Source of the DNA: a virus
Taxonomy: Duplodnaviria; Heunggongvirae; Uroviricota; Caudoviricetes
IMG/VR virus record: IMGVR_UViG_648276650_000001
Coordinates: 1 to 15,112 of that record
Length of the DNA: 15,112 nt
Strand: one strand, 5' to 3'
Shown here: positions 1-12,581 of the stretch, in pieces
How the letters are laid out: every line of letters starts with the position of its first letter
Position numbering within the stretch: the first letter of the stretch is position 1
Program-made: the position numbers and the translations under genes
Notes under the pieces: model-generated
Seen by the model: the letters and a program-made list of their open reading frames with translations, nothing else
What the model was told of the DNA's origin: nothing
The model's database searches: none

Positions 1-342
1 GACGAAGTAATTTTCAGGGAATATTTCTATGATACACCACCAGAAGGAAAATACAGATGTGTCGGAGAGGATGGGCTGCCTGCGTGGGCAGATATTCCTC
101 CACCCACGCATGAAGAACTTATTGAAATTACAGAATCAGAAAGACAGCTACTAATTAACCAGGCCAACGAATACATGAACAGTAAGCAATGGCCCGGTAA
201 AGCCGCTATTGGTCGTCTGAAAGATGATGAACTGGCGCAATATAATTTGTGGCTGGATTATCTGGACGCACTGGAACTGGTTGATACCTCCAGTGCTCCA
301 GATATTGAATGGCCTACGCCTCCGGCAGTTCAGGCCAGATGA
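1..342 (+). CDS. tfa: Tail fibre assembly protein, C-terminal part only (5' end lies outside the window); convergent with the minus-strand tfa
   Basis: Frame 1 of the plus strand is open from base 1 to TGA at 340-342 and translates to ...GRLKDDELAQYNLWLDYLDALELVDTSSAPDIEWPTPPAVQAR*. The C-terminal motif (TSxAPDIEWP) is the conserved Tfa end as I recall it from lambda Tfa. Absent from the ORF track because no long Met-initiated stretch falls inside the window. Confidence 0.7.
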   Translation, partial: DEVIFREYFYDTPPEGKYRCVGEDGLPAWADIPPPTHEELIEITESERQLLINQANEYMNSKQWPGKAAIGRLKDDELAQYNLWLDYLDALELVDTSSAPDIEWPTPPAVQAR

Positions 343-919
343 CATCCGGCGCGGTGCTGGTATCTGTTGCCGTCACCGCGTCAATGTAATCCAGCACGGC
401 GTTAAGTCGGGTTGTTTCTGCCTGCGTCAACTTCCGTCCGGCCTGTAATTTCAGCTGAATCAGACTAATGGAAACCATTGCTGCATCAATCAGTGACTGG
501 CGCTGTGCTTCTGCCGCTTTTACTGCGGCACCATATTGTGCCTCAGTATCTGTCACCCATTTCTCACCATCCCATTTATCGTATGGCGTTAACGGAGCGA
601 TAGTGCTCGTATTTTCAGGGTAATCTCCTGGCGCGGTGATTTCTTTTGGTTCTCCAGTTTCGGTGCTATAAACAATTTCACCGCGATGGTCTGGCACATA
701 TTTCCACGAGTTCAAATCCGTTGAGCGGCATATTGCATAACCAGCTTTAGATGCACCTGGTGCATCTAAACAAGAACATGCCGGGATACCGACACCGACA
801 GCAAGATATTCTGTTGATGTTGAAATATATTCCTGCGTCTCACCATCATAATTATAAACGGTAACATTCCCCGCCTTTGTAGCAATAAGCTCACTATTTA
901 ATACAGCTTTATTCATCAT
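314..919 (-). CDS. tfa: Tail fibre assembly protein (Tfa-like chaperone)
   Basis: 201-aa ORF. The C-terminal half (DHRGEIVYSTETGEP...YDKWDGEKWVTDTEAQ...DTSTAPDVIWPELPEA) resembles lambda Tfa as I recall it. The start overlaps the stop of the upstream tail-fibre gene in an ATGA arrangement. Confidence 0.85.
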   Translation of the reverse strand: MMNKAVLNSELIATKAGNVTVYNYDGETQEYISTSTEYLAVGVGIPACSCLDAPGASKAGYAICRSTDLNSWKYVPDHRGEIVYSTETGEPKEITAPGDYPENTSTIAPLTPYDKWDGEKWVTDTEAQYGAAVKAAEAQRQSLIDAAMVSISLIQLKLQAGRKLTQAETTRLNAVLDYIDAVTATDTSTAPDVIWPELPEA

Positions 920-1887
920 GCAGCCCTCACAATATAATTAAAAGCGATGTTACGTGGACGATTTTCATTTGCTGTTGGAACGACATTTGCTGCAGAAAAA
1001 TAAACATCTTGTCTGATACGTCTGTCTGTTGCGTAAGTCATAGGTACGTTAATGTTATTTCTAGTAGTTTCTTCCCCATAAAAGGCCCCAGCCACACCAC
1101 TAACATCGATAATTGCATTAATCTCACTGTTAACACGCTGCTGACCGAATGAACCAGTGATGTTTCGAATGGCATCTCCCTGTGACGAAAGCAAGCTACG
1201 GTTAGTATCAATTCCTCTTCCATCATCCCAGCCACGAATGAACTCACCACGTAAATCAGGCAATTTTTTTGTCGGGTAAGCCTTTGCCAGTTCCGGGTAT
1301 TCTTCAGCAGAAAAAACCGCACCGTTGCATTTCAGCCAGCCTGTTGGCGGAGTGGCGGAAGGCCACGGAACAGGGACACCAACAGGTAATGCAGAGCCTT
1401 CTCCCAAACCAAGGTTTGTGCTAGCGTCTGCGGCATTCGTTGCGCCGGTACCACCTTGATTAACCGGCAAAGCTCCGTTGCTCCCCTTCTGCAGTAATTT
1501 CCCAAGAGCCGGGATTGATAAACTGGTGCCATTGATCGTAACGGTAATGTTCTGGTTGGCTGAGGTTGTGGCGAACGTCTCCCACGCACCAATATTCTCG
1601 TCATACTCCTTGATAAGCTGCGACATGGCCTGCGCCAGCCCATCAACCGAGATATTGTCTGATACCAGAATGCCGTACTTCTGGCCGCTCAGCGCCGGTG
1701 ATGCAGCAGGCGTTACCGTCATTGACGTGGCGCTATTCACGGATGAAATCTGGAACAGTTGCACCGGGTTAGACATCACGATAATTGTCTGGCCAGCGCG
1801 AACCTGGCTGGCCGGTGCAGTCCAGTTTGTACCGGAGCCGGTTGCGGTATTTCCGTTAATAGAGATAGTTCCGGTGCTATAAATCAT
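916..1887 (-). CDS. Tail fibre protein (short, 323 aa) with a C-terminal phage-tail-collar type domain
   Basis: The C-terminal region (PVPWPSATPPTGWLKCNGAVFSAEEYPELAKAYP...LPDLRGEFIRGWDDGRG...NIAFNYIVRAA) resembles the conserved C-termini of E. coli prophage side tail fibre proteins (StfR-type ...NIAFNYIVRLA) as I recall them. It has its own AGGAG Shine-Dalgarno 5 nt upstream of the ATG at 1887. Confidence 0.85.
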   Translation of the reverse strand: MIYSTGTISINGNTATGSGTNWTAPASQVRAGQTIIVMSNPVQLFQISSVNSATSMTVTPAASPALSGQKYGILVSDNISVDGLAQAMSQLIKEYDENIGAWETFATTSANQNITVTINGTSLSIPALGKLLQKGSNGALPVNQGGTGATNAADASTNLGLGEGSALPVGVPVPWPSATPPTGWLKCNGAVFSAEEYPELAKAYPTKKLPDLRGEFIRGWDDGRGIDTNRSLLSSQGDAIRNITGSFGQQRVNSEINAIIDVSGVAGAFYGEETTRNNINVPMTYATDRRIRQDVYFSAANVVPTANENRPRNIAFNYIVRAA

Positions 1888-2392
1888 AACAACTCCTAAA
1901 TTTAGACAACATGAAGCCCGGAGAGGTATATAACCCTCACCAGAAATAATTTCTGAATTGGTTTTTAATACATGTTGGGCAACGCCAGTGTTGGCATAGC
2001 TATAGTTGTATCAAATGCCATTGACCACCAACCCAAATAATAATTGCCGACTACTTTATTCCTTTCCGCTATGACATTCCCACCTGTCATTACAATTCCT
2101 TTATACCTAATATTTCCGTAACCACCAACGTGTCGACAGTTAGCCCCGGTATAAACAATCTGGCAAAATTTATCACCAATATTCAGGTTCGCATTGGTGA
2201 TATTTATTGTCCCATCAAAAATGAATGGCTTCGTGCAAGTAAGAACACGTTTGCGTTGACGATTGGTTTATTCAATCCATCAACTAGAATACCTTGTAAA
2301 AGAATTGCCATAATATTTCTCACTTTATTTAACTTACTCAGCATAACAAGTATATTGAAATTCAACCATGTCAACAACACAAAGGAGTCCCA
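1888..2392. promoter_or_regulatory. AT-rich non-coding region between the divergent tail-fibre gene (-) and lipoprotein gene (+); presumed to hold divergent promoters
   Basis: About 500 bp with no convincing ORF and clearly more AT-rich than the flanking coding sequence. Exact -35/-10 hexamers could not be assigned with confidence. Confidence 0.4.
2171..2202. repeat. Perfect 10-bp inverted repeat with a 12-bp spacer (TATCACCAAT-n12-ATTGGTGATA); candidate protein-binding site
   Basis: Read directly: tatcaccaat (2171-2180) and attggtgata (2193-2202) are exact reverse complements. Confidence 0.5.
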
Positions 2393-2626
2393 ATGAAACT
2401 CGCTCTAATTATGCTGCCATTATGTCTGTCCCTCACTGCATGTGGTAATGGTTTAAATACCGGTAAACCAAATTCCGGTGTCATTCCAAAACCTTTGGAT
2501 CGCGATGGTAACGGTTCTTTAATTTATGATACCGAAAAGCTTCCAATGACTGGGCAATGGTGCCATGAAATTGATCACGAATACAGACGAATTGGTTCAC
2601 CTTCAAACTGTGTGATTGATTATTGA
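2393..2626 (+). CDS. Small lipoprotein (77-aa precursor); candidate Cor/Llp-like superinfection-exclusion moron
   Basis: AAAGGAG Shine-Dalgarno 7-8 nt upstream of the ATG. N-terminus MKLALIMLPLCLSLTAC has a hydrophobic core and an LTAC lipobox, with Gly at +2. Two further Cys in the mature part. AT-rich relative to the tail genes. Followed by a strong hairpin with a T-tract. Confidence 0.75.
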   Translation: MKLALIMLPLCLSLTACGNGLNTGKPNSGVIPKPLDRDGNGSLIYDTEKLPMTGQWCHEIDHEYRRIGSPSNCVIDY

Positions 2627-2662
2627 TAATTAACCCCTCAAACGAGGGGTTAATTATTTATT
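2627..2662 (+). terminator. Intrinsic terminator for the lipoprotein gene, formed by a 13-bp perfect palindrome and shared with the 3' end of J
   Basis: taattaacccctc (2627-2639), loop aaac, gaggggttaatta (2644-2656), then tttatt. The T-tract is good on the plus strand only; on the minus strand the hairpin is followed by TCAATAATC. Confidence 0.7.
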
Positions 2663-5600
2663 ACGACCAACTGCCAGTTCCGCGAGTCATTAATATTACA
2701 GACGGGCGCAAGTAGCTATTATAGACGTTCGTATACGCCTCCTTAACGCTTATTGTTACGCTCGACGCTGTCTTTCCTTTCACTGCTAACGGTATGGTTA
2801 CATCCATGTCGGGACCATTAGCAGCTCGCTCAATGCTCCTTGTAATTGAGGTCCCCCCTATGTTAGCAGTCACAGTTATACGACTTGCCTGATTTGATGT
2901 ATATGCGGTTAAACTATAACTTAATAGCAACACAAAGTCTTTAGATAATGTTGAACCAGATGAGTCTTTGAAAGTTTTTGTCCAGGTTCTTGAACTTGTA
3001 GTTTCTGTGTTTGGTATTGCGGACTCAGCAATGACACACATATTCGCAACATCACCGATAAAACTTTGCGCTTCTACAGTTCCTTTGAACTTACCGCTTG
3101 TTGCTTGTATCTCACCAGTAAAGCTACCGCCACTAGCATATACCACACCTCTGACAGTTACGTTATTGAATTCAGCATCCCCGGCTTTATCAAGCTTCCA
3201 GCCAGCAGAACCAGCAACATAATTGTTCGACTGGATATAGTTGCCGATTTTGGCGTTCTCAATGGTGCCGTCCTGGATGAAGCTGGCCCGGATGAATGTC
3301 TGCCCGTTCTGGATCACGAACGGCAAAGCCACGCTATTTCCGGCCGCCGTGGTGACGGCGAAGCGATCAGCCAGGAAGATAACCTGCGACTGCATGCCGG
3401 ATGGCGTATTCTCCACGCCGATCCCCATCCCTGCGGCGTAATACTGCCCGTTGCTGGAGACACCAACCTTGATGTTGTACATCGCGCTGAGTTCGCCATT
3501 AACGTTGGCTATAGCCTGAGCGTTAGTGGTGATGGCGGAGGTATGCCCGTTCACGGTCGCCGTGATGCCGTTTATCTGCGTGGCGGTGGCCTGCTGATAG
3601 TCGGAGAGCGTCTGATTCAGGCTGTTGATGGATGCCTTGTTGCCGTTGACGTCCGTCTGCAGGCTCAGCAATGAACGTGCTGTGGCTTCCTTCTCACTGA
3701 CGATCACCTCGTCGAGACGGTCCAGCTGAGCGCTGTTACCGGCGACCGTTGCGGATAGCCTTTTGCGTGTGGCGACCTGCGCCAGCCCGTTCTGGATAAT
3801 GGCAATGGCTGAGTTCTTGACCCCGCCCGTCATGCCATCCATAGACACACTGATGCTGTCGATTCGCTGGCCCAGCGCGGTATCAGCCGTCGCAACGGTC
3901 TGCTCAAGCTGACTGAGTGAAGACGAAACATTCCCGACCGTGCTGGAAAGCTCATTAACGCTGGTCTGAACCTTCCCGACGTCCTGGGCATTTTTGGCGA
4001 TGTCCTTCGCCTGCTGCTCCAGTTCGTCGTTGGCCTGTTTGATATCGTTAGCCATGTCAGCAATTTTTTCATTGCTGTCCACCGCGTTCTCGATCAGGTC
4101 CTTGAACGTATCGGAGCCTTTCATGTCCTCCAGGATCACATCTGTGATGTCGGAAACATCGATGCTGGCCTGTCCTCGCACCCATTCTGTGTACCCTGAT
4201 TCGTTGCCGCTGCGGTCCACCAGCTGAGCGCGGTACCAGAAAATCTGCCCAGCATTGAGGCCCATCTGCTGATATTTGCGCTGCGGATAAGGCACATCGG
4301 CCAGCAGCATCGCATCGTCCTCGGTTCCGGTCAGGCTGTACTGAATTTCCGTCTTCAGCGTGTCGTCGGTATTCGCCGGGAATCCCCAGTTCAGCTCGAT
4401 GCCGAAATCCACATTTTCAGAAGCGATGAAGCCAACCGGCTTAGGTGGATTGCCCACTTTACCCGTCAGCGTTTTCTCTTCTGAATAGCCCCATCCGGAT
4501 GAAATTTCTGCGGCATTGATTGCGCGCACCCGCACCAGGTAGCGCCCGGCATAAATCCCCGGGACGTCGAATGACGTGGTGGAGGTGCGCGGCACGTTAA
4601 CCCAGTTCCCGTCGTTGCGGCGCCATTGCGCTTCATAGGCGATAGCGTTCTGCGCCTGGTCCCAGCTCACGCGCATCGTTTCGACGCTGATATTTTGCTG
4701 CACCACGGAAAACGAGCTGATCACGATGTTCGCAGGCGGCGACTGGTTACCAGGCGGGATCACGCTCACCGGCCGCTGGTCAATAATGGCTCCGGTATCG
4801 ATTCGGGCATATTTATCCGGATCGTGCCATGCACCGGTAATGGTGAAAGTGCCATCATCGTTATCAGTGACGCTCACAACACGGTACTGCTGTGCGTACA
4901 GTTCGTTTGACTCAACCACCCAGACAGCTTCGGCCTGCGGCGTCTCACTGTATGCGGTGGTGACTGTGACCGATTCCCCGTTAACCGCCTGAATTGTCCT
5001 GCTCTGTGACGCTCCGGAGGGAAGGTTGAGGATAAGGCGATCACCTGCTGCCGCATCAGCTACACGGTCAAGTTTGATAACGCGACCATTAACGGCGCTG
5101 ATGCGTCCGCCCATAACCTTTCCGGAAAGCAGCTCGTCTGCCACAGCGATGATATAGCCAGGCTGCGGTATGTTTCCGTCCAGCCCGACATCGAACGAAA
5201 CAACGCGATCCTTGTTGTTGGTGAGAATACCCCAGCGCCCCTTTCGGTTCGCTTCTGACTGTCTGGTACAACCAATGGCTGTCATTTCGAGCTGATTTGT
5301 GCCAAAGCGAGCAACGAGATCCTGCTCAAATACAGGCTCCATCGCATCCGCGTAGGCATTACCCGGATCGGACCAGGAAACCAGTGCTGTGGTATAGCGG
5401 GTTTTCGTGGTGCTGCCCGAATAGGTAAAGCGCCCATTAACCACGTTTGCACGCGTGTAGCTGTAATCCACATCGCGGGGCATATCCGCCAGCGCAACGA
5501 TTTGATCGCCACCCCAGTACGTCATGCCCCGGAATATCGCCGCAAAATCACGTAACACGGTATAGGCATCATTCCTCTCCTGCACATACACGTTGCAGGT

Positions 5601-6605
5601 ATAGCGAGGCTCAGTGCCGCTACCGCCTTTACCATCAGGAACCGGCTGATCGCAATATTGCGCGACCTGGTAAAGCGTCCATTTATCAATATTGGTCGCC
5701 GTCAGGCGATTGCCCAGCCCAAAGCGGTCGCTCACCACCAGATCGTAAAAAATCCAGGCCGGATTATCCGTCCACGCCCACTTAAACACCCCCGTCCATG
5801 TGCCGCTATAGGTGCGGGTCTCCGGGTCATACGTATCCGGAACGCGGATTACACGGCCTCGCGGTTCGCAGGCTATTTGCGGGATAGAGCCGTTAAACTG
5901 GCTTGAGTCAAATTCGATGTAGAGCAGCGCGGTATTTGGATAACGCAGTTTGGCGTCGATAACCTCTGTGTAGCTCTGCAGCGTCATTGTGTCGCCAATT
6001 TTCGCGCTGTTGGCATCCGCCGTGAGCTTACGCAGGCGCACCGTCCATGTGCTGCCTGCCTGTGGTAAGTCGATGCGATGGCTGCGTTCGTAGCCGGAAG
6101 TTGTCTTGCCGGTTACGCTGGTATTAAGTACCGTCTGCCAGGTACCACCATCAGTCTGCAGATCAATGGCGTAGTTAATTGAATAGCCAACCAGATCGCC
6201 ATCGTTCTCCTGTTTAAAAAGCGATGGCCATTTCAGGCGCAGGCGAACGGCTGACAGCTGCGTGTTGGTAAAGGTGTGTGTCCAGGCGGTGGTGCTTGAA
6301 ACTTCGGTGCCCACGCTGATTTCGTTTTCGGTACCGGGGATGCCCTGAATGTATTTTTGTGCCTGCGTCCCCGGGCGGAATTCCCACGCCACGCCGCTGA
6401 AGTTTTGCGAACCGTCTGCATTCTCCAGTGGTGTGCCGTCGAGATAGATATCTTTCGCCGTCAGTTGCCCGGCAAATTCCCCCTCTCCCAGCGCAACAAG
6501 AATTTTGGCCTTTGCTACGGACTGGAGGTCGTCTGGTTGTTCAGTCGGGGTGCGGGAACTTGAGCTGCCGCCCTTGCGGCCTCTAATCGGAGTAGATGTA
6601 GCCAT
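2661..6605 (-). CDS. J: Tail tip / host specificity protein J (central tail fibre, 1314 aa)
   Basis: Very long ORF immediately after I in lambda gene order. Internal segments (e.g. YPNTALLYIEFDSSQF, TWTGVFKWAWTDNPAWIFYD, CDQPVPDGKGGSGTEPRYTCN, FTITGAWHDPDKYA) resemble lambda gpJ as I recall it. Includes a long Ala/Gln/Ser-rich coiled-coil-like stretch and a distinct C-terminal domain. Confidence 0.95.
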   Translation of the reverse strand: MATSTPIRGRKGGSSSSRTPTEQPDDLQSVAKAKILVALGEGEFAGQLTAKDIYLDGTPLENADGSQNFSGVAWEFRPGTQAQKYIQGIPGTENEISVGTEVSSTTAWTHTFTNTQLSAVRLRLKWPSLFKQENDGDLVGYSINYAIDLQTDGGTWQTVLNTSVTGKTTSGYERSHRIDLPQAGSTWTVRLRKLTADANSAKIGDTMTLQSYTEVIDAKLRYPNTALLYIEFDSSQFNGSIPQIACEPRGRVIRVPDTYDPETRTYSGTWTGVFKWAWTDNPAWIFYDLVVSDRFGLGNRLTATNIDKWTLYQVAQYCDQPVPDGKGGSGTEPRYTCNVYVQERNDAYTVLRDFAAIFRGMTYWGGDQIVALADMPRDVDYSYTRANVVNGRFTYSGSTTKTRYTTALVSWSDPGNAYADAMEPVFEQDLVARFGTNQLEMTAIGCTRQSEANRKGRWGILTNNKDRVVSFDVGLDGNIPQPGYIIAVADELLSGKVMGGRISAVNGRVIKLDRVADAAAGDRLILNLPSGASQSRTIQAVNGESVTVTTAYSETPQAEAVWVVESNELYAQQYRVVSVTDNDDGTFTITGAWHDPDKYARIDTGAIIDQRPVSVIPPGNQSPPANIVISSFSVVQQNISVETMRVSWDQAQNAIAYEAQWRRNDGNWVNVPRTSTTSFDVPGIYAGRYLVRVRAINAAEISSGWGYSEEKTLTGKVGNPPKPVGFIASENVDFGIELNWGFPANTDDTLKTEIQYSLTGTEDDAMLLADVPYPQRKYQQMGLNAGQIFWYRAQLVDRSGNESGYTEWVRGQASIDVSDITDVILEDMKGSDTFKDLIENAVDSNEKIADMANDIKQANDELEQQAKDIAKNAQDVGKVQTSVNELSSTVGNVSSSLSQLEQTVATADTALGQRIDSISVSMDGMTGGVKNSAIAIIQNGLAQVATRKRLSATVAGNSAQLDRLDEVIVSEKEATARSLLSLQTDVNGNKASINSLNQTLSDYQQATATQINGITATVNGHTSAITTNAQAIANVNGELSAMYNIKVGVSSNGQYYAAGMGIGVENTPSGMQSQVIFLADRFAVTTAAGNSVALPFVIQNGQTFIRASFIQDGTIENAKIGNYIQSNNYVAGSAGWKLDKAGDAEFNNVTVRGVVYASGGSFTGEIQATSGKFKGTVEAQSFIGDVANMCVIAESAIPNTETTSSRTWTKTFKDSSGSTLSKDFVLLLSYSLTAYTSNQASRITVTANIGGTSITRSIERAANGPDMDVTIPLAVKGKTASSVTISVKEAYTNVYNSYLRPSVILMTRGTGSWS

Positions 6606-6614
6606 ATTGCGCCC

Positions 6615-6641
6615 ATAAAAAAAGCCACCCTGAGGTGGCTT
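6615..6641 (-). terminator. Intrinsic-terminator-like hairpin between the 88-aa ORF and the J start codon
   Basis: On the minus strand: AAGCCACC, loop TCAG, GGTGGCTT, followed by a T-run of about 7 that includes the stem end. The J ATG lies about 11 nt further downstream. Confidence 0.6.
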
Positions 6642-6659: not shown

Positions 6660-6926
6660 TCAGATATTTGTTTCGCTAAATGGGTTTACAAAATCAGCTT
6701 CTGCTTTGAAAAACTGACAATCACTGGACGACGTTACTGATACTGGAATACCGGTATCTTCAACTTCATATAGCTTTGAATATTTATCGGAAACTTTGCC
6801 AGAAAATGTCTCGCGACAAATAACCTCTCCGCCACGGTTTACTATTACTGTCGCATTTCCGCCGATCAGGATTCCGTCATCAACGCGATGCAGGCCTGAA
6901 ATGGTCAATCTTAAGTATTTCTTCAT
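6660..6926 (-). CDS. Hypothetical 88-aa protein inserted between I and J; unknown function
   Basis: ATG overlaps the I stop (ATGA). GGGGA Shine-Dalgarno-like motif about 6 nt upstream. Noticeably more AT-rich than I and J. Lambda has no gene at this position. I recognise no family for the sequence MKKYLRLTISGLHRVDDGILIGGNATVIVNRGGEVICRETFSGKV... Confidence 0.55.
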   Translation of the reverse strand: MKKYLRLTISGLHRVDDGILIGGNATVIVNRGGEVICRETFSGKVSDKYSKLYEVEDTGIPVSVTSSSDCQFFKAEADFVNPFSETNI

Positions 6927-9335: not shown

Positions 9336-11852
9336 TTACCTGCGATTGGTCGCATTCCAGATAAGCCCACCGGGCTGGATTGCCCTGGCGATACCATCAT
9401 TGACAGATTTGTTAATCACCTGCTGATACGCCTTACCCAGCCTGTCTCCGTCGTTTTGCTGCTGTGCGTTACCGGAAGCATTCTCGACCGTCACCGGGGC
9501 ATACACACTGACACCGAAAGGTGCTGCAGCCGGGCCTGTACCACCGCCCCCGACATACCCTCCCGTTGCATAGCCTTTCATCATCCGGTAAAGATTGCCG
9601 ACGCCGATCCTGCTGGTAGCCTCTTTGGTGAAAACAAACTCACCACGGTGAACGACACCTGCTGGCTCATATTTCCCGCCTGAACCGGTATAACCGCCAC
9701 CTGCAAATCCCAGCGCGGTTGATGCTGAATCCACCAGGCCTACCATCGCCTGTTTCAGCAGGATCTGTGTCAGCATGGAGAGCGTGGAGCGGGTGAAGTC
9801 AGCCCAGTCAGCCTTTCCGCGCGTCAGCATGTCAGCCATATTTTGCCCAATGCCATCAAACGTACTGCTGGCAAACGACTTCATCTGGCCATAAGCATCA
9901 GAAGCAGAATCAACATAATCTGCCCATGCGGATTTGGCTCCGGATTGCCAGTCACCCCGAAGCTTATCCTGCTCGGCGTAATACGCATGCAGCCCCTGCA
10001 GCTCATTCTGATAACCGGCATCGTTTTCGGAACCTCCACCATTTTTCCACCCCTGAAGAAGCTGGGCCTCCTCGTTGCGGCGTTGTGCTGCACGACTGCT
10101 CATACCAGCACTTTCCGCCAGGGCTCGGGTTTTCTCGCCGATCTGCGTGACGTATTTTTGGGACGTATCCTGCAGGCGATTAAGCCGCTCCTGCGCCACT
10201 ATCTGATCGCCGAGCTTCGCGTTCAGCTCCGCACGGGAAAGCACCTCGCTTTTACTGGCCAGCAGGGATTTTTCCTCGGCAGAAAGCGTCCGGGTCTTCG
10301 CGGCCTCTTCCAGAACCGTAAAACGGGACTGCTTACGCCACAGCTCCTGACGCTGCTGGCTGATGGTGTCATTTATCCCCTTATGCTCCTGCAGGGTGCG
10401 CAGCTGTGCTTCCAGCTCCATCGTCTGGGCGCTGGCCGCATCGGTTGCACGGGTACCGGCAGGAGTCCTGACTGCAGGTGTTTTCTTCGGCTTTTTAAGG
10501 GTGTCTTCGTACTCTTTTTTCGCGGCAGCCAGGTTGATGTTGTAGTCAGCCTGGAGGATCCGCCCCTCTTTCAGCGCCTTGTTGAGCTCGCTCTGCCTGG
10601 CCGTGTATTTCTCCAGTGCCGTCTGCGTTTTGGCATAGTTTGCCTGTGCCTGCGCAGCATACTTCTGGCGATCCGATTCCGCAGCCGCTTCGCGCGATGC
10701 ATTCTCTTCGTTCGCCATGGCAATTCCCGCCTGCTGCTGCGCCATATCCAGCGCAAGCCTGGCCGTTTCGCGGTCATTCCAGAATCGGGCGCGAGCCTCA
10801 TCATTGACATATCGGTCACCTTTACGCAGGTTCCAGATTTCATCAGCCTTTTTAAACGCGGCCTGGGCTTTTGCCACCATCTCCTGGGCGGTGTCAGGTC
10901 TGCCAATATCAAGTGCAGCATCCCACATCGACTTGAAGGCACGCTTCAGGGAATCCGCTGAAGACTCAATCGTCCCCATATTGTCGCGGATGGCCTTGGT
11001 CTGATCGTTGAATCCGGCAGTAGCAGCCTGATTAGCCGCCTGCAGTGCGCCAGCCTCATCACCGGCACGCTGCAGCTGTGCCACATGGGCAATCTGTTCG
11101 GCCGTAACGTTGTGGAACTGCTGAGCCATCGCGATCAGGCCTGATGTAGGGTCAGTAGTGAGCTTGCCGTATGCGGCTGCGACTTTTTCCACCGGCACGC
11201 CGGAGGCATCAGTAAATCGCGCCACCGCCTGGCTCATTTCATCAAAGCGCGAACTCGCGCCCACCCCCGCGTTGATAAGCTCGCTCAGGGCTTCGCTGGT
11301 CTGATTGAACGTCAGCCCCGCTGCCTGGCCGTTTCGTGCCAGCGCCAACATACGATCGGCAGTCAATCCGGCCGTGTTCCCCGACAGTACCAGCGTTTTG
11401 TTGAAGTCAGATAGTGTGGATGAGCCCTGGTACCAGGCATAGAACAGCGCACCCGTTGCGGCGGACAGCGCACCGATGCCGACCATCAACGGTGAGATCG
11501 TACCCAGTAAGGCCCTGAATGTTGGTATTATCCCGCCAAAGGAGTCCTTAACCTGACCGCCCTGCTGAAGCAGAATCAGCCATGGGTTCTGCCCGCCCGC
11601 TAGCTGCGTAGCTATATCGGTAAACTGCGCCGGAAGCATACGCATTGCTGCGTTATACTGGCCTATTGAAATACCCGCCTTGCGCGCGGCGTTCTCCTGG
11701 CGGCTAAAGGACTGCTGGATCCGTAGCGCTTCGTCGTTCGCCGCGCTGCCAGTCTGCTTTAATTCTTTTTTGACGTAGTTAAGCTGCTCGTTAAATTTCG
11801 TCGAGTTAACGTCAAGGTTAACGACCAGATCACCCACTGCCGTCTGGGCCAT
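9336..11852 (-). CDS. H: Tail tape measure protein H
   Basis: 838 aa. The N-terminal region (GDLVVNL...KAGISIGQYNAAMRMLPAQFTDIATQLAGGQNPWLILLQQGGQVKDSFGG) closely resembles lambda gpH as I recall it. Long Ala/Gln-rich helical middle and Gly-rich C-terminus. Confidence 0.95.
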   Translation of the reverse strand: MAQTAVGDLVVNLDVNSTKFNEQLNYVKKELKQTGSAANDEALRIQQSFSRQENAARKAGISIGQYNAAMRMLPAQFTDIATQLAGGQNPWLILLQQGGQVKDSFGGIIPTFRALLGTISPLMVGIGALSAATGALFYAWYQGSSTLSDFNKTLVLSGNTAGLTADRMLALARNGQAAGLTFNQTSEALSELINAGVGASSRFDEMSQAVARFTDASGVPVEKVAAAYGKLTTDPTSGLIAMAQQFHNVTAEQIAHVAQLQRAGDEAGALQAANQAATAGFNDQTKAIRDNMGTIESSADSLKRAFKSMWDAALDIGRPDTAQEMVAKAQAAFKKADEIWNLRKGDRYVNDEARARFWNDRETARLALDMAQQQAGIAMANEENASREAAAESDRQKYAAQAQANYAKTQTALEKYTARQSELNKALKEGRILQADYNINLAAAKKEYEDTLKKPKKTPAVRTPAGTRATDAASAQTMELEAQLRTLQEHKGINDTISQQRQELWRKQSRFTVLEEAAKTRTLSAEEKSLLASKSEVLSRAELNAKLGDQIVAQERLNRLQDTSQKYVTQIGEKTRALAESAGMSSRAAQRRNEEAQLLQGWKNGGGSENDAGYQNELQGLHAYYAEQDKLRGDWQSGAKSAWADYVDSASDAYGQMKSFASSTFDGIGQNMADMLTRGKADWADFTRSTLSMLTQILLKQAMVGLVDSASTALGFAGGGYTGSGGKYEPAGVVHRGEFVFTKEATSRIGVGNLYRMMKGYATGGYVGGGGTGPAAAPFGVSVYAPVTVENASGNAQQQNDGDRLGKAYQQVINKSVNDGIARAIQPGGLIWNATNRR

Positions 11853-12581
11853 AGCGCACGCCTCCTGAAATACCTGCAGCCTTCGCCATCAGCGTATCGT
11901 CATCCGGCTCATCAACGTCGATGCTTTCCGATACAGGGGAAAGGATGCTGAAACTGTCCGGTGTTAATTCCGGATCAGCAAAAAACAGGGTTGAGATGGT
12001 GTAGAGCAAACCGGAGAAATGAGCATCCAGCTGCGCATCATGAAAGTAATTGTCCTGGTAGAAGATTTTCCAGTCGCCGTATTCCGTTGAGGACATGCCA
12101 GCAAGCATGGCACGCCAGTCCGGGCGACCGAACTCACGCGCCAGTTTCATGGCAAACTTCAGCTCACTGGCGAGGGCTTTTCCGCAGTAACAGGTTCAGC
12201 GGGTTCATTACGTTCTTCACCGGGCTCAGCCTGGTCATCAGTGACCGGCGCAATCATCCCGGACAGGAGTTTCACCTTATATTCGGCTTCGGCAACAAGT
12301 TCGGTCGGCCATGTCTGCATGACCTCATCCTGAATCTGCTCCACTTCCGCCGCCGCGTTTTCTCCCTGCGATCCTTTAAGCGCGTGGCCATGCCAGAGTG
12401 ACATTGCCACCAGATATGCTCCACTCTTCACGGTAAGGGTAATGGCAGCCTGAAAATCACCAGCTTCAACCGCCTCAAGTTGTTTCAGGTATTCGAGGTA
12501 TTCAATACGCTGCAGCGCCGACAGCTGGAACAATGTGACGCTGCTGCCGTTACTTTCAAGCAGCTCGCTCTTTAGAAACAT
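11830..12581 (-). CDS. T: Tail assembly chaperone G-T, predicted -1 programmed frameshift fusion (T frame continues to the stop at 11832-11830)
   Basis: The T reading frame is -1 relative to G and is open from 12195 to 11830, overlapping the last 12 G codons. The only slippery-looking motif in the overlap is GGAAAAG (minus strand, 12183-12177), one base different from lambda's GGGAAAG. The T end overlaps the H start, as in lambda. Confidence 0.75.
12159..12581 (-). CDS. G: Tail assembly chaperone G
   Basis: 140 aa. MFLKSELLESNGSSVTLFQLSALQRIEYL...AMSLWH...TWPTE...PAEPV...S matches the lambda gpG pattern as I recall it. GGAG Shine-Dalgarno 5 nt upstream. Confidence 0.9.
   Translation of the reverse strand: MFLKSELLESNGSSVTLFQLSALQRIEYLEYLKQLEAVEAGDFQAAITLTVKSGAYLVAMSLWHGHALKGSQGENAAAEVEQIQDEVMQTWPTELVAEAEYKVKLLSGMIAPVTDDQAEPGEERNEPAEPVTAEKPSPVS
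12177..12183 (-). other. Candidate -1 frameshift slippery heptamer G GAA AAG for G-T synthesis
   Basis: Read from the minus strand: zero-frame codons GCG GAA AAG CCC; -1 frame codons TGC GGA AAA GCC. The Lys-tRNA can re-pair AAG to AAA; the P-site re-pairing GAA to GGA is imperfect. Confidence 0.5.

What the first reader, a model, noticed from the sequence alone, without database searches (positions are those of the whole stretch)
2393..2662. Lipoprotein moron antisense to the tail operon, beside the J gene: candidate receptor-blocking superinfection-exclusion factor
A 77-aa ORF on the opposite strand has a textbook lipoprotein signal peptide (lipobox LTAC, Gly at +2, predicting outer-membrane sorting), a strong ribosome-binding site, AT-rich composition and its own terminator. 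Phage-encoded small outer-membrane lipoproteins next to receptor-binding genes (T5 Llp; Cor of phi80/N15/HK022) block the phage's own receptor and so exclude superinfection. Size, lipobox and genomic context fit that class. I cannot assert sequence homology to Llp or Cor from memory.
Basis: partly seen in the sequence, partly recalled or inferred. Interest (0 to 1): 0.65.

Follow-up and report, generated by a model that had tools for sequence, protein, structure and literature searches.

The report
LamB-directed phage exclusion lipoprotein gene
This small prophage gene encodes an outer-membrane lipoprotein whose close relative has been shown experimentally to stop phages that enter through the maltose porin LamB, so it is a new member of a recently described family, not a new kind of system.

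Summary
A 77-aa ORF at 2393-2626 (+) has a canonical lipobox (LTA|C, Gly at +2), an AAGGAG ribosome-binding site, a conserved sigma-70-like promoter and a strong bidirectional hairpin. It lies tail-to-tail with the J tail-tip gene.

The window is a lambdoid prophage next to ssrA in E. coli MS 115-1.

The protein has no detectable similarity to Cor or Llp beyond the signal peptide. It is a full-length member of PHROG 12984 and is 53% identical (73% in the mature core) to Lpp010 of phage mEp010. Plasmid-expressed Lpp010 excludes the LamB-dependent phages mEp010, mEp044, mEp554 and lambda (PMC11893012).

In all 42 phage records where its neighbourhood could be assessed, the gene sits about 30-65 nt beyond a J gene. 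That J gene carries one of two related receptor-binding domain types. Every experimentally tested carrier of either type uses LamB. The lipoprotein stays nearly identical when the domain type is swapped, so its target is most likely the receptor.

dN/dS in the mature part is 0.02-0.08.

The molecular mechanism is still untested, and structure prediction failed.

The parts
2329..2356 (+). Sigma-70-like promoter: -35 TTAACT, 16-nt spacer, -10 TATATT
   Evidence: Consensus scan, 9 of 12 matches. It aligns with TTGACT-16-TATATT in Seurat and KurtStettler and is conserved in the Nissle prophage and 9g. Function is inferred, not shown.
2382..2387 (+). Shine-Dalgarno AAGGAG, 5 nt before the ATG
   Evidence: Read directly from the sequence. 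Conserved in the Queuovirinae and prophage copies.
2393..2626 (+). Lipoprotein gene. Signal peptide at 2393-2440, lipid Cys codon at 2441-2443, mature 61 aa at 2441-2623, stop at 2624-2626.
   Evidence: PHROG 12984 'lipoprotein', E 9e-57, full length. 53% identical to the tested exclusion protein Lpp010. PS51257 rule met. dN/dS 0.02-0.08 in the mature part. Invariant Cys57 and Cys73 suggest a periplasmic disulfide.
2625..2658 (.). Bidirectional intrinsic-terminator-like hairpin (15-bp stem, 4-nt loop) between the stop codons of the lipoprotein gene and J
   Evidence: dG -21.3 and -20.2 kcal/mol, z about -6. The equivalent element is annotated as a bidirectional terminator in phage Seurat and as a terminator in mEp010.
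2661..3038 (-). Last 125 codons plus stop of J: the receptor-binding domain, 'Seurat type'
   Evidence: 92-95% aa identity to the J C-termini of the LamB-dependent phages GottfriedDienst, WildeMaa and SeppeHuegi. HK97, Nissle and 9g carry a different RBD type exactly here, while homology resumes at 3039.
2661..6605 (-). J-like tail tip / central fibre gene (1314 aa)
   Evidence: Pfam FNIII-A_GpJ, Phage-tail_3 and Phage_Tail_Tip. 88% nt identity to HK97 J from 3039 onward.
1969..3038 (.). Low-GC (0.40) mosaic block that replaces the HK97-like sequence. Positions 2253-3176 are 90% identical to Seuratvirus DNA.
   Evidence: blastn map, GC values, alignment to HK97.
2204..2311 (-). 35-codon remnant of the N-terminus of a Seuratvirus-type lateral tail fibre gene, carried in with the cassette
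   Evidence: 65% identical over 31 aa to the N-terminus of Seurat gp21, then a stop codon.

Best explanation
The gene encodes a small lipoprotein. It is exported by Sec, lipidated and cleaved at Cys17 by Lgt and Lsp, and sent by the Lol pathway to the outer membrane because it has no Asp at +2. There it inactivates the maltoporin LamB as a phage receptor. A cell carrying this prophage would therefore be protected from phages that enter through LamB. In the virulent phages that carry the same gene, the infected cell and its debris would likewise stop capturing such phages. The gene travels as a cassette with the LamB-binding C-terminal domain of J: own promoter, convergent orientation, shared bidirectional terminator. 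This makes it the LamB counterpart of the Cor and Llp (FhuA) and Rtp45 (LptD) cassettes. Shown here: the gene is real and under purifying selection, it has the lipoprotein signals, it is homologous to a tested exclusion protein, and it is linked to LamB-type J domains. Inferred: it acts on LamB itself, from the periplasmic side. The most likely route is that its mature 60-residue, disulfide-stapled, largely unstructured chain binds the periplasmic face or enters the lumen of LamB, as Rtp45 does in LptD, and so disturbs the extracellular loops that J must bind.
For: Homology to a tested protein. BLASTP to mEp010 gp116 gives 53% identity over the full length, E 3e-31, and 73% identity in the mature core. 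That protein, Lpp010, excluded mEp010, mEp044, mEp554 and lambda when plasmid-expressed, and all of these need LamB (PMC11893012). The architecture in mEp010 is the same.

Linkage to the receptor-binding domain. All 32 phage records with this window's RBD type carry the gene. So do 10 of 12 records with the HK97-type RBD; the two without it are both HK97.

Receptor data. The BASEL phages Bas21-24 carry the gene and all use LamB. Bas14-20 and Bas25 use LptD or FhuA and lack it. HK97 also adsorbs to LamB (PMC6832061).

The target appears to be the receptor. The Nissle 1917 copy is 76/77 aa identical to the window's copy, yet it sits beside the other RBD type. Lpp010 also excludes lambda, whose J C-terminus is only about 25% identical to this one.

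Positional allelism. The closest phage for the tail genes, mEp237, has a Cor module in the same slot. The Seuratvirus VogelGryff, which uses LptD, has a different gene there.

Lipoprotein signals are conserved, and dN/dS is 0.02-0.08.

Precedents for periplasmic lipoproteins that disable receptors: Llp with FhuA, and Rtp45 with LptDE (PMC12685063).
Against: No member of the family has been tested for adsorption, for binding to LamB or for localisation. The only experiment is a spot assay with the 53%-identical mEp010 protein. Lpp010 failed to exclude the LamB-dependent phage mEp013, so LamB is not simply removed or fully occluded. LamB has no plug domain, so the Llp-type allosteric route does not transfer directly. 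Two AlphaFold runs gave no confident fold (pLDDT 61 and 58). HK97 carries the same RBD type without the gene, so the gene is dispensable. The promoter is only a consensus match.
Confidence: 0.8

Rival explanations
1. The lipoprotein excludes LamB-dependent phages at a step after adsorption. It would let J bind LamB but block tail-tip opening, tape-measure insertion or DNA passage through the periplasm. This resembles the Gram-positive lipoprotein Ltp, or HK97 gp15 and T4 Imm/Sp, which act on injection.
For: The published assay measured only plaque or spot formation, not adsorption. The authors themselves list both options. mEp013 escapes although it needs LamB, which is easier to explain if the block depends on phage components. 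A periplasm-facing lipoprotein is well placed to meet an incoming tail tip.
Against: Lpp010 excludes both lambda and the mEpimmI phages, whose J C-termini differ strongly. The lipoprotein is 76/77 identical beside two different RBD types. The gene is linked to the receptor-binding end of J, not to the tape-measure gene. The characterised analogues in this genomic slot act on the receptor.
Confidence: 0.15
2. It is a lysogenic-conversion lipoprotein that benefits the bacterium in the animal host (serum resistance or adhesion, like lambda Bor or Lom) and has no role in phage exclusion.
For: It occupies the position where lambda carries lom, directly after J. It has its own promoter and terminator, as a moron does. 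It occurs in gut isolates including Nissle 1917.
Against: The same gene, under strong purifying selection, is carried by strictly virulent phages in the Seuratvirus, Nonagvirus, Dhillonvirus and Drexlerviridae groups, which cannot lysogenise. There is no Pfam hit to Bor, Lom or any other family. A homologue has a demonstrated exclusion phenotype.
Confidence: 0.03
3. It is an outer-membrane spanin (Rz1-like) or another lysis accessory lipoprotein.
For: A weak PHROG match to an Rz-like spanin family, E 0.24, covering residues 2-32 only. It is a small outer-membrane lipoprotein.
Against: The match covers only the signal peptide. The gene lies between J and the side tail fibre genes, not in a lysis cassette, and has no partner inner-membrane spanin. 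It is convergent with late transcription.
Confidence: 0.01

Closest known systems
Lpp010 (gp116) of phage mEp010, the 'type-C' exclusion lipoprotein of mEpimmI phages (Negrete-Mendez et al. 2025, PMC11893012); PHROG 12984
   Same: Homologous over the whole length (53% identity, and 73% in the mature core). It has the same lipobox, the same two conserved cysteines and the same PNSGVIP, DTEKLP.TGQWCHE and RRIGSPSNC motifs. It has the same position and convergent orientation after J, with a shared terminator, and the same association with LamB-dependent phages.
   Different: The signal peptide and the first ~10 mature residues differ (CGNGLNTGK here, CAVDKEAALHNL in Lpp010). The host element here is a lambdoid prophage with a 'Seurat-type' RBD, whereas mEp010 is a non-lambdoid temperate phage with an HK97-type RBD. 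This copy has never been tested.
T5 Llp (FhuA-blocking lipoprotein)
   Same: It is also a 77-aa precursor and an outer-membrane lipoprotein. It is encoded next to the receptor-binding protein gene and has an internal disulfide. Its established function is to inactivate the phage's own receptor.
   Different: There is no sequence similarity outside the signal peptide and no hit to the Llp chains in the PDB. Its target is the plugged TonB-dependent transporter FhuA, not the plug-less trimeric porin LamB. The cysteine spacing differs.
Cor of HK022, phi80, N15, T1 and mEp237
   Same: It is a 77-aa lipoprotein. In mEp237, the closest relative of this prophage's tail genes, it occupies the same slot between J and the side tail fibre genes. 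It is a moron-type exclusion gene.
   Different: There is no similarity in the mature part. Cor is co-oriented with J and accompanied by two small accessory genes. It excludes FhuA-dependent phages.
Rtp45, the superinfection-exclusion lipoprotein of LptD-targeting small siphophages (PMC12685063)
   Same: It is a small periplasmic lipoprotein with a disulfide, encoded in the J-adjacent receptor module. It acts on a barrel that is not a TonB-dependent transporter. AlphaFold also predicts it poorly. It is the best mechanistic model for how this protein could act.
   Different: Its target is different (LptDE). No sequence comparison was made here because its sequence was not fetched. Lumen insertion is shown for Rtp45 and is only hypothesised here.

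Membership tests
Lpp010 / mEpimmI type-C exclusion lipoproteins (PHROG 12984) | Sequence homology across the mature domain | tested here: met
   BLASTP E 3e-31, 53% identity over the full length. PHROG 12984 E 9e-57, profile positions 1-77 of 77. Shared invariant motifs.
Lpp010 / mEpimmI type-C exclusion lipoproteins (PHROG 12984) | Lipoprotein signal peptide with a lipobox and no inner-membrane retention residue | tested here: met
   The PS51257 pattern is met with Cys17 and +2 Gly. 26 of 28 family members meet it, and +2 is always G, A or S. No dedicated predictor (SignalP or LipoP) was available.
Lpp010 / mEpimmI type-C exclusion lipoproteins (PHROG 12984) | Located directly after, and convergent with, a J gene of a LamB-dependent phage | tested here: met
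   The two stop codons are 34 nt apart, across a shared hairpin. The RBD is 92-95% identical to those of the LamB-dependent phages Bas21, 23 and 24.
Lpp010 / mEpimmI type-C exclusion lipoproteins (PHROG 12984) | Expression excludes LamB-dependent phages | not testable with these tools
   Shown only for Lpp010 itself.
Cor family | Sequence similarity of the mature protein to Cor | tested here: not met
   BLASTP finds no alignment at E<=100. hhalign matches only residues 1-27, the signal peptide and lipobox.
Cor family | Excludes FhuA-dependent phages and is linked to FhuA-type receptor modules | tested here: not met
   The gene is linked exclusively to J domains of LamB users. The FhuA users Bas15-17 lack it.
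T5 Llp family | Sequence similarity of the mature protein to Llp | tested here: not met
   BLASTP finds none. hhalign matches only residues 1-21. phmmer against all PDB chains finds nothing at E<=10.
T5 Llp family | Fold similarity to Llp | tested here: inconclusive
   Two AlphaFold2 runs gave pLDDT 60.8 and 57.6. The models were too poor for a fold search, so none was run.
Moron (independent transcription unit added to a phage operon) | Own promoter and terminator, deviant composition, and absence from close relatives | tested here: met
   Promoter-like site, conserved. Hairpin. GC 0.40 against 0.555. Absent from HK97 and mEp237 at the same site. Annotated as an 'apparent moron' in phage Seurat. 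Promoter activity was not tested.
Rz1-type outer-membrane spanin | Encoded in the lysis cassette with, or inside, an inner-membrane spanin gene | tested here: not met
   The gene lies between J and the side tail fibre genes. The only PHROG similarity is to the signal peptide, E 0.24.

The most novel reading that the evidence does not exclude
The lipoprotein disables a plug-less trimeric sugar porin from the periplasmic side, for example by threading its disulfide-stapled C-terminal segment into the LamB lumen. This would be a structurally new way to inactivate a porin receptor. It should also reduce maltodextrin uptake, so the prophage would trade a nutrient channel for phage immunity. The 76/77-identical copy in E. 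coli Nissle 1917 would then be the unidentified factor behind that probiotic's complete resistance to lambda.
Probability: 0.3. Interest if true: 0.55.

Novelty: new member of a known kind. Interest (0 to 1): 0.35.

Why it matters
LamB is the classic phage receptor, yet until 2025 no lipoprotein was known to exclude lambda. This gene shows that the LamB-exclusion family is not confined to the mEpimmI phages. It moves as a roughly 0.9-kb cassette, joined to the LamB-binding end of J, between temperate lambdoid prophages and at least four groups of virulent phages. This gives a simple genomic marker for predicting LamB use and cross-exclusion among coliphages, which is relevant to phage-cocktail design. 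It gives a concrete candidate for the unexplained lambda resistance of the probiotic Nissle 1917. It also offers a tractable system for asking how a periplasmic lipoprotein can disable a porin that has no plug domain.

Tried and rejected
1. Pfam, NCBIfam, PADLOC and PDB sequence searches gave no hit.

2. Direct and profile comparisons with HK022 Cor and T5 Llp matched only the signal peptide.

3. AlphaFold2 was run on the full-length protein and on the mature protein, each with a 24-25 sequence alignment. Mean pLDDT was 60.8 and 57.6, with essentially no secondary structure. I did not run fold searches, because matches to such models are meaningless.

4. A profile search of 1.84 billion representatives found only three true clusters plus a 4467-aa repeat protein, P0031 (E 5e-8, 9 stretches). 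I read the P0031 hit as summed chance similarity of a 'DANGDITSVTVPGEGTW' repeat to the DGNGSLIYDTEKLPMTGQW segment, not as homology.

5. I first assumed the window was a Seuratvirus, because the best matches to 1900-3200 were Seuratvirus phages. Whole-window and E. coli genome searches rejected this: it is a lambdoid prophage of MS 115-1.

6. The terminator scan did not report the hairpin. Folding showed it is there.

7. Rfam gave no RNA family in 1800-3200.

8. I considered co-variation between the lipoprotein and the RBD type as a sign of RBD-directed action. I rejected it because nearly identical lipoproteins sit beside both RBD types.

Full report
**1. What is in the sequence**

The + strand carries a 77-codon ORF at 2393-2626 that encodes MKLALIMLPLCLSLTACGNGLNTGKPNSGVIPKPLDRDGNGSLIYDTEKLPMTGQWCHEIDHEYRRIGSPSNCVIDY.
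- The N-terminus meets the PROSITE PS51257 lipoprotein rule: K2, an uncharged hydrophobic core, the lipobox L-T-A-C with Cys17, and Gly at +2.
- AAGGAG lies at 2382-2387, 5 nt before the ATG.
- A promoter-like site, TTAACT-16-TATATT, lies at 2329-2356.
- A 15-bp hairpin at 2625-2658 fills the gap between the ORF's stop codon and the stop codon of the convergent J gene (2661-6605, - strand). It folds at -21.3 kcal/mol on the + strand and -20.2 on the - strand, z about -6, and none of 200 shuffles is as stable.
- Gene GC is 0.40, against 0.555 for the body of J.

The only adjustment is that the CDS ends at 2626 and the remainder of the stated interval is the terminator.

**2. It is a real gene**

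Homologues from the Nissle 1917 prophage, Seurat, KurtStettler and 9g differ from the window mainly at synonymous sites. In the mature part, dN/dS is 0.02-0.08, with dS up to 1.3. In an alignment of 28 relatives the signal peptide varies freely. The lipid Cys is invariant, and the segments PNSGV, TE, GQWC and N-C are invariant or nearly so. The two conserved cysteines, Cys57 and Cys73, suggest a periplasmic disulfide; this is an inference.

**3. Where the window comes from**

The short region around the gene matches Seuratvirus phages best. The window as a whole, however, is a lambdoid prophage. Its tail genes are about 95% identical to mEp237 and about 88-93% identical to HK225, N15 and HK97. 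The sequence is 100% identical to a prophage next to ssrA in E. coli MS 115-1, where the gene is WP_000761616.1, annotated 'hypothetical protein'.

A blastn map shows the mosaic structure:
- HK97 aligns with 262-1968 and 3039-6640, but not with 1969-3038.
- Seurat aligns with 2253-3176 at 90% identity.
- The non-HK97 block has GC 0.40, close to the 0.44 reported for Seuratvirus genomes.
- The block contains the last 125 codons of J, the hairpin, the lipoprotein gene and its promoter.
- It also contains a 35-codon stump of a Seuratvirus-type lateral tail fibre gene at 2204-2311, which is 65% identical to the N-terminus of Seurat gp21.

The lipoprotein gene and the receptor-binding end of J therefore arrived together by recombination.

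**4. What the protein is related to**

Pfam, NCBIfam, PADLOC and the PDB give nothing. PHROGs gives a full-length match to phrog_12984, 'lipoprotein', at E 9e-57. In the phage Seurat record the gene is annotated as a 'putative lipoprotein', and its terminator is noted as ending an 'apparent moron'.

tblastn finds the gene in 44 phage records:
- Seuratvirus, Nonagvirus 9g and Dhillonvirus (EP23, PNS1, Maverick, CS16, HH3);
- Cronobacter phage CSP1, Salmonella phage STP-SP5 and Enterobacter phage AS5 (Drexlerviridae);
- the temperate mEpimmI phages mEp010, mEp013, mEp044 and mEp554.

The mEp010 match is gene 116. Negrete-Mendez et al. 2025 (PMC11893012) cloned exactly this gene as Lpp010. They showed that its expression prevents spot formation by mEp010, mEp044, mEp554 and lambda, all LamB-dependent, but not by mEp013. 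The window protein and Lpp010 are 53% identical over the full length (E 3e-31) and 73% identical in the mature core.

There is no alignment with HK022 Cor or T5 Llp at E<=100. Profile comparison matches only the signal peptide.

The family is small. A profile search of 1.84 billion representatives returned three true clusters.

**5. Linkage to LamB**

Table S5 of the BASEL study (PMC8594841) lists these receptors: LamB for Bas21-24; LptD for Bas14, 18, 19, 20 and 25; FhuA for Bas15-17. Exactly the four LamB users appear among the tblastn hits. VogelGryff (Bas25), a Seuratvirus that uses LptD, is in the collection and has a different gene in this slot. That is 4 of 4 against 0 of 8. These are not independent lineages, so the count is only indicative.

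The broader linkage to the receptor-binding domain (RBD) of J is as follows:
- All 32 phage records with this window's J C-terminal domain carry the lipoprotein gene.
- A second, distantly related RBD type (the HK97 type, about 30% identical) occurs at 59% identity or more in 12 records. Ten of these carry the gene; the exceptions are the two HK97 records.
- In every case the gene ends about 30-65 nt beyond the end of J, by coordinates and by annotation.
- Experimentally tested carriers of both RBD types need LamB: Bas21, 23 and 24 for the Seurat type; Bas22, mEp010, mEp013, mEp044 and mEp554 for the HK97 type. HK97 itself also needs LamB (PMC6832061).

**6. The target is probably the receptor, not the phage protein**

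The Nissle 1917 prophage and phage 9g share the lipoprotein region with the window at about 88-90% nt identity up to position 2660. They differ across 2661-3038, the RBD, and become homologous again from 3039. The Nissle RBD is 92% identical to that of HK97, yet its lipoprotein is 76/77 identical to the window's. In addition, Lpp010 excludes lambda, whose J C-terminus is only about 25% identical to this one. What these phages have in common is LamB.

**7. Positional analogy**

In mEp237, the slot between J and the side tail fibre gene holds two small genes plus Cor. In lambda it holds lom. In VogelGryff it holds an LptD-type module. The BASEL authors, and van den Berg and colleagues, describe this locus as the place where small siphoviruses keep receptor-binding and superinfection-exclusion genes.

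**8. Mechanism**

The steps from Sec export to Lol sorting follow from the signal sequence and from the established rules of lipoprotein biogenesis. How the mature protein disables LamB is not known.
- Two AlphaFold2 runs gave low confidence, pLDDT 60.8 and 57.6. The same was reported for Rtp45.
- LamB has no plug, so the allosteric route of Llp does not transfer directly.
- The Rtp45-LptDE structure is the best available model. There, a hairpin of the lipoprotein rises through the barrel lumen and causes clashes that prevent receptor-binding-protein binding.
- The escape of mEp013 shows that the block is partial or conformation-specific.
- A block after adsorption remains possible, and I give it 0.15.
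- The lysogenic-conversion and spanin readings are disfavoured: virulent phages carry the gene, and it does not lie in a lysis cassette.

**9. Distribution**

34 of 5426 complete E. coli genomes carry the gene, always on the chromosome. Many of them are Nissle 1917 and its derivatives.

**10. Verdict**

The gene is an uncharacterised member of a family whose exclusion activity was first reported in 2025. It is not related by sequence to Cor or Llp. Three points go beyond the published description: the spread of the family across five phage lineages, its cassette structure with two interchangeable LamB-binding domains, and the Nissle 1917 copy. These are refinements of a known kind of system.

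Noticed in passing
L009 3688-3921 (E. coli Nissle 1917, NZ_CP022686.1 430269-430502; NZ_CP007799.1 about 2.039 Mb): Nissle 1917 carries a copy of the lipoprotein that is 76/77 aa identical, beside a J gene with an HK97-type (LamB) RBD. By coordinates it lies in PHAST 'prophage 4' of Bury et al. 2018 (PMC5987069). It does not lie in 'prophage 3', whose repressor gave only about 200-fold protection. That paper leaves an 'unidentified factor' for the strain's complete lambda resistance, and this gene is an untested candidate.
   Followed up: partly
window 1965-2311 (- strand): The side tail fibre region contains gene fragments. One is a 35-codon N-terminal stump of a Seuratvirus-type lateral tail fibre (2204-2311). 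Another is a 71-aa piece matching only the last 47 positions of Pfam DUF6453 (1965-2180). An HK97-like stf C-terminal gene (916-1887) and tfa (314-919) follow. Whether this prophage can still make side fibres is unclear.
   Followed up: partly
L006 6243-8217 (window 1-916 and the 1 kb to its left): A recombinase/invertase gene is followed by a gp53-like fibre-tip fragment and a tail fibre assembly gene, in inverted orientation relative to the stf/tfa pair. This looks like a Mu Gin / P1 Cin-type invertible host-range segment.
   Followed up: no
L005 3543-4864 (phage mEp237): The closest sequenced phage for this prophage's tail genes has a Cor gene plus two small genes in the exact slot occupied here by the lipoprotein cassette. 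This is a clean natural swap of receptor and exclusion modules.
   Followed up: yes
L010 about 1480-1722 (Shigella phage EP23); also PNS1 (H62-H63, H67-H68): The homologous lipoprotein gene is present but not annotated in the GenBank and RefSeq records of EP23 and vB_EcoS_PNS1.
   Followed up: no
P0017 (74 aa, seen on 29 contigs including E. coli chromosomes): This variant is identical to the window protein up to about residue 54, after which its C-terminus is unrelated. The most likely cause is a frameshifted, inactivated copy in some prophages.
   Followed up: no
window 6660-6926 (- strand): An 88-aa ORF with no Pfam match lies between the tail assembly gene I and J. This is the position where HK97 and HK022 carry small moron genes.
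   Followed up: no
window 11830-12150 (- strand; L006 19137-19451): RefSeq marks the tail assembly protein T reading frame as an incomplete pseudogene. Its position after gpG fits the usual G/GT programmed frameshift product, not a defect.
   Followed up: no
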